This document shows positions 266 through 1,288 of a stretch of 13,902 bases of DNA, piece by piece; the stretch's first letter is position 1, and every line of letters starts with the position of its first letter. The translations under genes were made by a program, and so were the position numbers. Origin of the DNA: a virus (Duplodnaviria; Heunggongvirae; Uroviricota; Caudoviricetes); the IMG/VR virus record IMGVR_UViG_3300029376_000363; one strand, 5' to 3'. The notes under the pieces were generated by a model. It ran no database searches. It had not been told where the DNA came from and was given only the letters and a program-made list of their open reading frames with translations.

Positions 266-487
266 ATGAGTGAATATAATATTGACATTGCCGATATGCA
301 GTGCTGGGTTTTCCGCATGGCTCAGTCCAAGTGGAAAATGTCTCCCAGCGACTGTGCTGAACTGTTTAAGAAATACGACATTCTTGGATTTATTTCTGAA
401 TGCTATGACATCCTTCATCTAAACGGTTACGCCTGTGTTCTTCACGATGTTGAAACCTTGTTAAAGAATCGAGGTGTATCCGTATGA
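266..487 (+). CDS. Small protein, DUF3791-like (73 aa)
   Basis: ATG at 266 with AAGGAGGT Shine-Dalgarno (252-259), 6-nt spacer; the TTG at 242 used by the ORF track lacks an RBS. Stop overlaps the next start (ATGA at 484-487). Family assignment from memory of the DUF3791/DUF3990 gene-pair pattern; unverified. Confidence 0.65.
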   Translation: MSEYNIDIADMQCWVFRMAQSKWKMSPSDCAELFKKYDILGFISECYDILHLNGYACVLHDVETLLKNRGVSV

Positions 488-1065
488 TCGAATTGCAGGA
501 TGGGATGCTTCTGTACCACGGTAGCTACATTGGTATCCCGGCGATTGACCTGAATCGCTGCTTTGGTGGACTCGATTTTGGCCGAGGTTTTTATCTTACA
601 TCTTCCTACGAGCAAGCGTACAATTACGTTCAGCTTTCGGTTAGGAAAGCGATGCGTATTGGTACAGTTCCAAAAGATTTCAACCCGGAAGACGGACAGA
701 TATCTGTTTACAAATTCCACTACGATCCCAACATATTAGCTTACTGTTTCCAAGGAGCCTCTGTTGAATGGCTTCATTTTGTAGCAGCAAACCGAAAAAA
801 GGATTTGTTCCCACAACTTTTGAAAAAATACGGCACCATCGACATCATCGGTGGAAAAATTGCAGATGACCAAACAGCCCACACCTTACAGCAGTATATC
901 GGTGGCGTTGACTTTGGTATCCCCGGCACACCGAAAGCAGACAAAATAGCTATTGAAAAACTTCTTCCCAATCGCCTAAAAGACCAATTCTGTTTTCGCA
1001 CGCAGGACGCCGTTAATCATCTTGAATATATAAGGAGTGACCGCTATGGAGATGTCAAACTATAA
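484..1065 (+). CDS. DUF3990-like protein (193 aa); possible ADP-ribosyltransferase-like fold
   Basis: ATG at 484 translationally coupled to the upstream gene; GAGGTG RBS. N-terminus MIELQDGMLLYHGS...DFGRGFYLTSSYEQA matches the remembered DUF3990 signature (lYHGS ... DFG.GFYLT). The H-G-S then Y arrangement is reminiscent of H-Y-E type ART folds (inference). Confidence 0.75.
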   Translation: MIELQDGMLLYHGSYIGIPAIDLNRCFGGLDFGRGFYLTSSYEQAYNYVQLSVRKAMRIGTVPKDFNPEDGQISVYKFHYDPNILAYCFQGASVEWLHFVAANRKKDLFPQLLKKYGTIDIIGGKIADDQTAHTLQQYIGGVDFGIPGTPKADKIAIEKLLPNRLKDQFCFRTQDAVNHLEYIRSDRYGDVKL

Positions 1066-1288
1066 CTTCACAGATACGCAGAAAGAAAGCTGTGCTGTCA
1101 GTCTCATGCGCGATACGGTCAAAGAACTCGCTTTGCGTGATACTATTTCCTATGAAGATGCACTGTTACGCTTCACAAATTCAAAAGTATATGAAACACT
1201 TTTCGACTATGATACCGGAATTTGGAGAGAAAGCCCCGACTATCTTCTGAATCTCTATGACTATTGCAATTCTAAAAAGACTGCCTAA
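1046..1288 (+). CDS. Second small DUF3791-like protein (80 aa)
   Basis: ATG at 1046 with AGGAG (1033-1037) 8 nt upstream; alternative GTG at 1037. Overlaps the 3' end of the DUF3990-like gene by 20 nt in another frame. Shares the aromatic YD-rich C-terminal pattern with the first small gene. Confidence 0.6.
   Translation: MEMSNYNFTDTQKESCAVSLMRDTVKELALRDTISYEDALLRFTNSKVYETLFDYDTGIWRESPDYLLNLYDYCNSKKTA

What the first reader, a model, noticed from the sequence alone, without database searches (positions are those of the whole stretch)
266..1288. Two divergent small paralogs bracket the putative effector
The 73-aa and 80-aa proteins share an aromatic YD-rich C-terminal pattern but are otherwise divergent. 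One precedes and one follows the DUF3990-like gene, and the second start is buried inside the effector's coding end. This suggests two non-redundant partners rather than a simple duplicated antitoxin.
Basis: inference. Interest (0 to 1): 0.4.

Follow-up and report, generated by a model that had tools for sequence, protein, structure and literature searches.

The report
Three-gene DUF3990 toxin-like prophage cassette
The two small genes are real, conserved and non-interchangeable companions of an ADP-ribosyltransferase-like gene, and are probably very old paralogs, but the trio is already listed as the untested phage-defence candidate PDC-M13, so this is a new member of a known, uncharacterised kind.

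Summary
Window 266-1288 carries three translationally coupled + strand genes. These are orfA (266-487, 73 aa, Pfam DUF3791), orfB (484-1065, 193 aa, Pfam DUF3990, ART clan) and orfC (1046-1288, 80 aa, no Pfam hit). orfC starts 20 nt inside orfB. orfC is a real gene: it has 201 representative relatives and an excess of third-codon-position substitutions. The A-B-C order recurs in all 107 related phage and gut-bacterial loci examined, apart from contig-end cuts and one 5'-truncated locus. All three proteins match PADLOC models of the untested defence candidate PDC-M13.

Paralogy is probable but indirect. BLASTP and profile-profile comparison find nothing. However, five orfC-type proteins hit Pfam DUF3791 below threshold, all in one register (orfC = orfA + 9). 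That register matches the AlphaFold helix order of both proteins.

Non-redundancy is well supported. A and C are separate families in fixed positions. Natural C-A and B-C fusions exist. C evolves fastest and is duplicated in 22 loci. Four loci have a frameshifted B with A and C intact.

The most likely mechanism (inferred) is an ART-like toxin held by a two-part A+C partner, carried as a prophage moron. Novelty is modest.

The parts
201..229 (+). sigma-70-like promoter candidate (TTGCTA, 17 nt spacer, TATACT) upstream of orfA
   Evidence: Consensus scan, (9 of 12 matches). This is a consensus match only, not shown to function.
251..257 (+). Shine-Dalgarno AAGGAGG, 8 nt before the orfA ATG
   Evidence: Read directly from the sequence.
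266..487 (+). orfA, 73 aa, DUF3791 family small helical protein (component A of PDC-M13)
   Evidence: Pfam PF12668, E=1.1e-12, 48.1 bits against a cut-off of 25. PADLOC PDC-M13 models PDLC04445/04434/04433. 286 homologs. AF2 pLDDT 94.5, five helices.
484..1065 (+). orfB, 193 aa, DUF3990 (ADP-ribosyltransferase clan) putative toxin/effector; its ATG overlaps the orfA stop (ATGA)
   Evidence: Pfam PF13151, E=7e-29. Weak N-terminal ART-PolyVal and PARP hits. PADLOC PDC-M13 and PDC-M10 models. Invariant Y-H-G-S (11-14) and G-F-Y-x-T (35-39) motifs.
1032..1037 (+). Shine-Dalgarno AAGGAG inside orfB, 8 nt before the orfC ATG
   Evidence: Read directly from the sequence.
1046..1288 (+). orfC, 80 aa, fast-evolving small helical protein; probable divergent DUF3791-superfamily member (third component of PDC-M13); overlaps orfB by 20 nt
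   Evidence: No Pfam hit itself. PADLOC PDLC04444 E=7e-11 and four further PDC-M13 models. 88 close and 201 representative homologs. Third-position substitution excess. Relatives hit DUF3791 in one consistent register. AF2 pLDDT 72.7.
1405..1440 (+). intrinsic-terminator-like hairpin (11 bp stem, 7 GC pairs) plus T-run, closing the cassette
1..110 (-). context: start of the prophage tail tape measure gene (MASRIQGITVEIGG...), which runs off the window
   Evidence: Translation. The full-length homolog in L030 hits phrog_1272 tape measure, E=4e-193.
1504..2099 (-). context: two small tail-module genes (75 aa phrog_3033; 144 aa phrog_709) in the tail-assembly-chaperone position
   Evidence: In Clostridium phage NatCom_42228 the homolog lies 14 nt from the tape measure gene with no cassette between them.

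Best explanation
Window 201-1440 is a self-contained three-gene operon. Its genes are DUF3791 (orfA), DUF3990 ART-fold protein (orfB) and a divergent DUF3791-like protein (orfC). It is a member of the catalogued but untested PADLOC defence candidate PDC-M13.

Shown here:
- The cassette sits in reverse orientation between the tail-chaperone-position genes and the tape measure gene of a Blautia-type siphoprophage, as a moron.
- orfA and orfC are separately conserved, non-interchangeable companions of orfB.

Inferred:
- orfA and orfC are very old paralogs.
- orfB is a toxic ADP-ribosyltransferase-like effector.
- A and C act together, probably as a heteromeric pair of two related helical subunits, to hold B inactive or regulate it. 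Translation of all three is coupled through overlapping stops and starts.
- C is the specificity or sensor-like subunit, because it evolves fastest and is sometimes duplicated.
- The cassette behaves as a tripartite toxin-antitoxin or abortive-infection module that benefits the prophage or its lysogen.
For: Family identities.

Triad conservation: A-B-C or A-B-C-C' is found in all 28 viral and 80 genome loci, down to 42% orfB identity, except for contig-end cuts and L032. By a heuristic start-codon choice, overlapping junctions occur in all 97 A/B cases and 98 of 101 B/C cases.

PDC-M13 cassette composition: FAM_00109>>FAM_00403>>FAM_00080 with 257 instances, and its cyclic permutation with 112.

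Paralogy:
- Five orfC-type single-domain proteins hit Pfam DUF3791 (E=9e-5, 6.5e-4, 1.4e-3, 3.9e-3, 0.018), all mapping orfC residue = profile + 18. orfA maps as profile + 9.
- The AF2 helices correspond: 3-23/27-36/39-45/47-50/55-68 in orfA against 10-31/36-44/47-52/hairpin/64-79 in orfC.
- The second domain of P0331 is hit by both profiles.
- Both models share one BFVD neighbour, A0A8S5SVW3, with TM 0.57-0.65.

Partnership: L113 is B followed by a C-A fusion, and L114 is A followed by a B-C fusion.

Toxin-like decay asymmetry: B is frameshifted in 4 loci with A and C intact. B-less A-C fusions also exist.

Toxicity of the fold: DUF3990 is the C-terminal toxin domain of a Serratia T6SS Rhs effector that has a downstream immunity gene (PMC4524185). 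It also belongs to the Pfam ART clan (PMC7955679).

C evolves fastest: mean identity is A 0.90, B 0.84 and C 0.66 in the same loci.

Moron context.
Against: - No experiment exists for any PDC-M13 member. The candidate status comes only from guilt-by-embedding.
- Direct A-versus-C comparisons are negative.
- The DUF3791 hits of C-type proteins are all below Pfam's gathering score.
- The shared Foldseek neighbour is not significant (E 0.41 and 6.4).
- The orfC model is of only moderate confidence (pLDDT 72.7).
- No DNA-binding or known antitoxin fold was found in A or C.
- The third catalytic residue of an H-Y-E triad could not be placed. The ART-PolyVal and PARP hits are weak (E 0.027 and 0.2).
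- Co-folding could not be run.
- The surveyed loci are the 80 best of more than 528 and share two orfB motifs, so they represent one DUF3990 subfamily. Other DUF3990 genes pair with DUF3791 alone or with another small family (PDC-M10).
Confidence: 0.55

Rival explanations
1. orfA and orfC are unrelated in ancestry and are merely two small helical proteins. One (A, DUF3791) is the antitoxin. The other (C) is a different kind of third component, for example a transcriptional regulator, chaperone or adaptor, as in other tripartite toxin-antitoxin systems.
For: BLASTP and all hhalign comparisons are non-significant. orfC itself has no Pfam hit. The PADLOC models hit by A and by C are disjoint. Small all-helical proteins easily give similar helix patterns and TM scores near 0.6.
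Against: Five independent C-type proteins hit the single Pfam family DUF3791 out of 24,736 models. All are in the same register, and that register reproduces the offset between the predicted helices. 6 of 73 C-type proteins hit DUF3791, against at most one hit for any other family. The P0331 domain matches both profiles.
Confidence: 0.2
2. The cassette is not a toxin-antitoxin or defence module. orfB is a phage-beneficial ART-like enzyme, for example modifying host or competitor components during infection or countering host defence. A and C are its regulators or target adaptors.
For: The cassette is carried inside a prophage tail-gene module and on many IMG/VR viral contigs. Defence function of PDC-M13 is untested. 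Phage ARTs with host-takeover roles are established knowledge (T4 Alt, ModA and ModB).
Against: The cassette has its own promoter-like site and terminator and lies opposite to the late operon, as expected for a lysogeny-expressed moron. The same triad occurs in many bacterial genome contigs, although their prophage status was not examined. PDC-M13 was defined from copies embedded in BREX, DISARM and type I RM loci. The decay pattern, with B inactivated and A and C kept, fits a toxin.
Confidence: 0.2
3. The 1046 ORF is a chance open frame overlapping the end of orfB and is not translated.
For: None beyond its small size and its overlap with orfB.
Against: It has 88 close and 201 representative homologs. 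Its position is conserved at 24-100% amino-acid identity. 58% of substitutions are at codon position 3. A canonical AAGGAG lies 8 nt upstream. Dedicated PADLOC models exist. Fusions to A and to B exist.
Confidence: 0.01

Closest known systems
PADLOC phage defence candidate PDC-M13 (Payne et al. 2024 bioRxiv, 10.1101/2024.01.29.577857)
   Same: It has the same three protein families in the same order. orfA, orfB and orfC each hit PDC-M13 models. The cassette FAM_00109>>FAM_00403>>FAM_00080 has 257 instances, and its cyclic permutation has 112.
   Different: Nothing structural differs. Here the cassette is a moron in a prophage tail module rather than embedded in BREX, DISARM or RM. PDC-M13 is an untested candidate with no published mechanism. 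I found no mention of the A/C relationship in the searchable text.
Two-gene DUF3990 cassettes (DUF3791>>DUF3990, and PDC-M10 = DUF3990>>FAM_01732)
   Same: They share the DUF3990 core gene with a small adjacent partner. orfB hits PDC-M10A models at E=1.9e-14.
   Different: They have only one small partner. In the subfamily surveyed here, the third gene is always present.
ART-fold toxin-antitoxin systems DarT-DarG and ParT-ParS / RES-Xre (established knowledge)
   Same: They pair an ADP-ribosyltransferase-clan toxin with a co-transcribed neutralising partner. Some act in phage defence.
   Different: Their antitoxins are a macrodomain enzyme (DarG) or an Xre/DUF2384 protein, one per toxin. Here there are two small helical DUF3791-type proteins with no recognisable enzymatic or HTH domain.
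Tripartite toxin-antitoxin systems (TAC with a SecB-like chaperone; paaR-paaA-parE; omega-epsilon-zeta) (established knowledge)
   Same: They have three co-transcribed genes in which a third small protein modulates a toxin-antitoxin pair.
   Different: The third component there is a SecB-like chaperone or a DNA-binding regulator unrelated to the antitoxin. orfC shows neither and appears related to orfA itself.
Rhs5-CT DUF3990 toxin domain of the Serratia marcescens T6SS (PMC4524185)
   Same: It carries the same Pfam domain, used as a C-terminal polymorphic-toxin domain with a downstream small immunity gene.
   Different: There the domain is fused to an Rhs delivery protein and secreted. Its immunity protein was not compared here.

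Membership tests
PADLOC PDC-M13 (candidate defence system) | Three adjacent same-strand genes, each matching the PDC-M13 HMMs (DUF3791-type, DUF3990-type, third small family) | tested here: met
   orfA hits PDLC04445 (1.7e-10), orfB hits PDLC04438 (7e-30) and orfC hits PDLC04444 (7.3e-11). The gene order matches cassette FAM_00109>>FAM_00403>>FAM_00080.
PADLOC PDC-M13 (candidate defence system) | Anti-phage activity | not testable with these tools
   The family is one of 145 untested candidates.
Pfam DUF3791 (PF12668): orfA | Score above the gathering cut-off of 25 bits | tested here: met
   48.1 bits, E=1.1e-12, residues 20-69 = profile 11-60.
Pfam DUF3791 (PF12668): orfC | Score above the gathering cut-off of 25 bits | tested here: not met
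   orfC has no hit at E<=1. Its relatives P0261, P0237, P0236, P0341 and P0319 score 15-23 bits, below the cut-off, but all in one register. This supports superfamily kinship, not formal membership.
Pfam DUF3990 (PF13151): orfB | Score above the gathering cut-off of 32.2 bits | tested here: met
   100.9 bits, E=7.2e-29, residues 8-181 = profile 1-151 of 152.
ADP-ribosyltransferase superfamily (H-Y-E type) | Conserved His (beta1, H-G-[ST]), Tyr (beta3, aromatic-Y-x-[ST]) and catalytic Glu/Asp/Gln (beta5) | tested here: inconclusive
   Y11-H12-G13-S14 and G35-F36-Y37-x-T39 are invariant. Weak ART-PolyVal (E=0.027) and PARP (E=0.2) hits cover residues 4-52. The third residue was not placed (candidates are the nearly invariant D167 and the invariant Q168). 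No structure was predicted for orfB. Clan membership rests on Pfam.
Type II toxin-antitoxin module | Small adjacent co-transcribed genes with translational coupling | tested here: met
   ATGA overlap of A and B, and 20-nt overlap of B and C. Both overlaps are conserved across loci.
Type II toxin-antitoxin module | Toxin is toxic and is neutralised by direct binding of the antitoxin | not testable with these tools
   There are only indirect hints. B is frameshifted or deleted with A and C intact. B-C and C-A fusions exist.
Type II toxin-antitoxin module | Antitoxin carries a DNA-binding domain for autoregulation | tested here: inconclusive
   No HTH, RHH or AbrB family was found in A or C. Foldseek gave no significant PDB match for C. 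The A model was never searched against the PDB.
Tripartite TAC (toxin-antitoxin-chaperone) | Third gene encodes a SecB-like chaperone | tested here: not met
   orfC has no Pfam or NCBIfam hit and no PDB sequence hit. It is an 80-aa helical protein.

The most novel reading that the evidence does not exclude
A and C, two ancient DUF3791-fold paralogs, assemble into a pseudo-symmetric heterodimer that clamps an ART-fold toxin. The fast-evolving, often duplicated C subunit acts as the phage-sensing specificity element whose displacement releases the toxin. This would be a new tripartite abortive-infection architecture carried by gut Clostridia prophages as a superinfection-exclusion moron.
Probability: 0.25. 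Interest if true: 0.6.

Novelty: new member of a known kind. Interest (0 to 1): 0.35.

Why it matters
DUF3990/DUF3791 cassettes are abundant in gut and rumen anaerobes. PDC-M13 was counted 3,324 times in rumen MAGs (PMC13356809). No member has been characterised.

Three results turn a bare candidate entry into a testable model of a two-partner ART toxin system:
- The third gene is obligatory in this subfamily.
- It is probably a diverged copy of the first gene.
- It is fused to either neighbour in some genomes.

The results also indicate which subunit (C) to examine for specificity. For the scan itself, the finding is a correct reading of an already catalogued arrangement, not a new kind of system.

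Tried and rejected
- BLASTP of orfA against orfC found nothing.
- The first hhalign comparison (A1 vs A2) gave a spurious E=0.0013, because A1 contained P0080, an A/C deletion chimera. I removed it and the signal vanished.
- Deeper profiles built from 109 loci and 73 distant hits were still non-significant by hhalign. One local attempt failed on a filter bug.
- Foldseek of orfC against the PDB found no match.
- Foldseek of orfA against BFVD found only one close DUF3791 relative.
- PDB sequence searches found nothing for orfC or orfB. orfA gave only repeated weak matches of its C-terminal 20 residues to DARPin/ankyrin consensus repeats, which I treated as a motif resemblance and not as homology.
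- NCBIfam gave no hits. PHROGs gave only weak hits of unknown function.
- GTG 1037 was rejected as the orfC start. The AAGGAG abuts it, and most homologs are called at 80 aa from the ATG.
- The TAC/SecB reading was rejected.
- A search for an inverted-repeat operator in 130-300 found none.
- Literature searches for DUF3990, DUF3791, PF13151 and PF12668 found no functional study.
- Co-folding and direct superposition of the two models could not be done.

Full report
**1. What is in the sequence**

Window 266-1288 holds three + strand genes.
- orfA is 266-487 (73 aa) and is preceded by AAGGAGG at 251-257.
- orfB is 484-1065 (193 aa). Its ATG overlaps the orfA stop as ATGA, and GAGGTG lies at 471-476.
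- orfC is 1046-1288 (80 aa) and is preceded by AAGGAG at 1032-1037. Its ATG lies 20 nt before the orfB stop at 1063-1065.
- A sigma-70-like site at 201-229 and a strong terminator-like hairpin with T-run at 1405-1440 bracket the three genes.

**2. Family identities**

- orfA is Pfam DUF3791 (48.1 bits, cut-off 25).
- orfB is Pfam DUF3990 (100.9 bits, cut-off 32.2). It also has weak N-terminal ART-PolyVal and PARP hits.
- orfC has no Pfam hit.
- NCBIfam is silent for all three, and PHROGs gives only weak hits of unknown function.
- All three hit PADLOC models of one candidate system, PDC-M13. The model sets hit by orfA and by orfC do not overlap.

PDC systems are 145 untested candidates derived by 'guilt-by-embedding' in BREX, DISARM and type I RM loci (Payne et al. 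2024). Their supplementary table lists two cassettes for PDC-M13. FAM_00109>>FAM_00403>>FAM_00080 has 257 instances, and the cyclic permutation FAM_00403>>FAM_00080>>FAM_00109 has 112. PDC-M10 is FAM_00403>>FAM_01732 with 339 instances. A rejected two-gene FAM_00109>>FAM_00403 has 123.

orfB hits PDC-M10A as well as the PDC-M13 models. The A/B/C labels of the models hit follow both cassette orders. From this I infer that FAM_00403 is DUF3990, FAM_00109 is DUF3791 and FAM_00080 is the orfC family. The window has the commoner order.

**3. orfC is a real gene**

- It has 88 close homologs, mostly 80 aa and beginning ME[MT]SNYN.
- An exhaustive profile search of 1.84 billion representatives gave 201 proteins at E<=0.001.
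- In loci where orfB is 78-95% identical to the window copy, 58% of orfC substitutions fall at codon position 3. The figures are 68% for orfA and 69% for orfB, against 33% expected without coding constraint.

**4. The triad is the rule in this subfamily**

28 IMG/VR loci and 80 loci from GTDB species genomes were classified with local HMMs of the three families. The genome loci come from Blautia, other Lachnospiraceae, Oscillospiraceae, Erysipelotrichaceae, Bacteroidales, Treponema, Eggerthellaceae and others. The best is Blautia sp. HCP28S3_G10 at 100% orfB identity.

The counts over 107 loci are:

| Architecture | Loci |
|---|---|
| A-B-C | 75 |
| A-B-C-C' (a second orfC paralog directly downstream) | 22 |
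| A-B(frameshifted)-C | 4 |
| Incomplete | 6 |

- Five of the six incomplete loci are cut by a contig or locus end. The sixth, L032, has lost orfA and the orfB start.
- The pattern holds down to 42% orfB identity.
- By a heuristic choice of start codons, junctions overlap in all 97 A/B cases (60 of them by 4 nt) and in 98 of 101 B/C cases.
- Identities of A, B and C to the window copies co-vary (r = 0.88-0.94), as expected for co-inherited genes.
- C diverges fastest. When B is 80-95% identical, mean identity is 0.90 for A, 0.84 for B and 0.66 for C.
- Caveat: the 80 genome loci are the best of more than 528 confirmed matches selected through two orfB motifs, so this describes one DUF3990 subfamily.

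**5. Are A and C paralogs?**

The direct tests are negative.
- BLASTP gives E=0.28.
- hhalign probabilities are 0.1-2.6% with shallow or deeper profiles.
- An early apparent hit was caused by P0080, an A/C deletion chimera in the alignment, and was discarded.

The indirect evidence points consistently the other way.
- (i) 6 of 73 single-domain orfC-type proteins hit Pfam DUF3791 at E<=0.01. No other family was hit more than once.
- (ii) For the five I could identify, the match maps to orfC residue = profile position + 18 in every case. These are P0261 (9.1e-5), P0237 (6.5e-4, profile 8-56 of 60), P0236 (1.4e-3), P0341 (3.9e-3) and P0319 (0.018). orfA maps as profile + 9. Hence orfC = orfA + 9.
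- (iii) AlphaFold2 gives matching helix patterns. orfA (pLDDT 94.5) has helices at 3-23, 27-36, 39-45, 47-50 and 55-68. orfC (pLDDT 72.7) has helices at 10-31, 36-44 and 47-52, a short hairpin at 53-60, and a helix at 64-79. The order and lengths are the same, shifted by 7-11 residues.
- (iv) The second domain of the fusion protein P0331 is matched by both the A profile (5e-5) and the C profile (1e-4) over the same residues.
- (v) Both models have the same 68-aa phage protein, A0A8S5SVW3, as a BFVD neighbour. TM is 0.57/0.65 for orfC, where it is the top hit with probability 0.93 and E 0.41. TM is 0.60/0.63 for orfA, with E 6.4. Neither match is significant.

My own estimate is that chance hits at a library-wide E<=0.01 to one pre-specified family out of 24,736 are expected about 3e-5 times in 73 proteins. 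Six hits are therefore far beyond chance, even allowing for the relatedness of the proteins.

I rate paralogy (shared DUF3791-superfamily ancestry) at about 0.75.

**6. Evidence that both small proteins work with orfB and are not redundant**

Fusions:
- L113 encodes orfB followed by a single C-A fusion protein (P0228).
- L114 encodes orfA followed by a B-C fusion protein (P0322). P0348 is another B-C fusion.
- Full-length A-C fusions also exist (P0244, P0258, P0263 and others). Those whose contigs were read (P0244, P0258) have no orfB nearby.

Deletion variants:
- P0080/P0217, P0339/P0347 and P0337 join an orfA N-terminus to an orfC C-terminus with orfB gone.
- Some may be assembly artefacts on very short contigs.

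Decay is one-sided. orfB is found frameshifted or deleted with A and C intact. I saw no locus with an intact orfB lacking A or C away from a contig end. That is the asymmetry expected if orfB is harmful without its partners.

Toxicity of the domain has independent support. DUF3990 forms the C-terminal toxin domain of a Serratia T6SS Rhs effector that has a downstream immunity gene, and it is placed in the Pfam ART clan. The motifs Y-H-G-S (11-14) and G-F-Y-x-T (35-39) are invariant in the family. They resemble the His and Tyr motifs of H-Y-E ARTs (established knowledge). The third catalytic residue could not be assigned.

**7. Genomic context**

- Window 1-2382 is 100% identical to IMG/VR contigs and 96.5% identical to Blautia sp. 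HCP28S3_G10.
- In that genome the minus strand carries, in order: the major tail protein, an SPFH-like phrog_200 gene, a 144-aa phrog_709 gene, a 75-aa phrog_3033 gene, the A-B-C cassette on the opposite strand, and the tape measure gene. The start of the tape measure gene is window 110-1.
- In Clostridium phage NatCom_42228 the homolog of the 75-aa gene lies 14 nt from the tape measure gene with nothing between them.
- The cassette is therefore a moron-type insertion of about 1.4 kb with its own promoter-like site and terminator.

**8. Mechanism**

Shown here:
- Three coupled genes with firm family identities.
- Obligatory co-occurrence in this subfamily.
- Fusions of C to A and of C to B.
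- One-sided decay of orfB.
- The fastest divergence and duplication at C.

Inferred:
- orfB is an ART-like toxin.
- A and C, related helical proteins, act jointly (most simply as a heteromer) to neutralise or regulate it.
- C carries specificity.
- The module acts as a tripartite toxin-antitoxin or abortive-infection system expressed from the prophage.

Rivals are that A and C are unrelated with distinct roles (0.2), that orfB is a phage-beneficial ART rather than a toxin or defence module (0.2), and that orfC is untranslated (0.01).

**9. Novelty**

The architecture is already catalogued as PDC-M13, though it is functionally uncharacterised. The window copy is a new member.

The following were not found in the searchable literature:
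- the probable A/C kinship;
- the fusions;
- the C' duplication;
- the decay asymmetry;
- the prophage tail-module location.

These are incremental contributions. Interest is 0.35.

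Noticed in passing
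window 2382 (junction); hybrid ORF 2112-2939 (-): The window is a chimera. 1-2382 matches Blautia-type prophage contigs at 96-100% identity. From 2383 onward it encodes P22-like enterobacterial phage proteins (ejection proteins, primase, Ant), with 85-90% nt matches to E. coli and Salmonella phages. The join creates an open hybrid ORF with a P22-like ejection-protein N-terminus and an SPFH-like C-terminus. This is probably an assembly or construction artefact.
   Followed up: partly
L007-L023, L026-L028, L036, L038-L040, L042 (e.g. L008 3831-4184): 22 related loci carry a second orfC-type paralog (C', 85-120 aa) directly after orfC. The window and its closest relatives (L001-L006, L030) lack it. 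The orfC position is thus a variable, expandable slot.
   Followed up: partly
L046, L055, L062, L088; L032: orfB is split by a frameshift in four genomes while orfA and orfC stay intact. L032 has lost orfA together with the orfB start codon. This is a one-sided decay pattern typical of toxin genes.
   Followed up: partly
L029 (P0080), P0217, P0339/P0347, P0337, P0255; L110-L112 (P0244, P0258): In-frame chimeras join orfA (or orfB) N-termini to orfC C-termini with orfB deleted. Orphan full-length A-C fusion genes occur with no DUF3990 gene nearby. Several sit on contigs below 1 kb and could be assembly artefacts.
   Followed up: partly
L030 4128-5099 (-); window 2112-2382 (-): An SPFH/band-7-like protein (phrog_200, annotated 'lipoprotein') sits between the major tail gene and the chaperone-position genes of the same prophage. 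It may be a second moron in the tail module.
   Followed up: no
window 413-472 (orfA residues 50-69): The C-terminal 20 residues of the DUF3791 family (LHLNxYxCxLxDVExLLxNxG) resemble the ankyrin/DARPin repeat consensus. They produced summed hits to multi-repeat DARPins (E down to 6e-9, but no single stretch passing).
   Followed up: no
window 145-169 (-): A terminator-like hairpin on the minus strand lies between the cassette promoter region and the start of the tape measure gene. It would face late-operon transcription coming through the cassette in antisense.
   Followed up: no
window 10366-10472: An 87% nt match to the P22 gene 3 (small terminase) and pac region lies inside a minus-strand 355-aa ORF (9553-10620) whose product hits transcriptional-repressor PHROGs. 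This is another sign of mosaicism in the right-hand part of the window.
   Followed up: no
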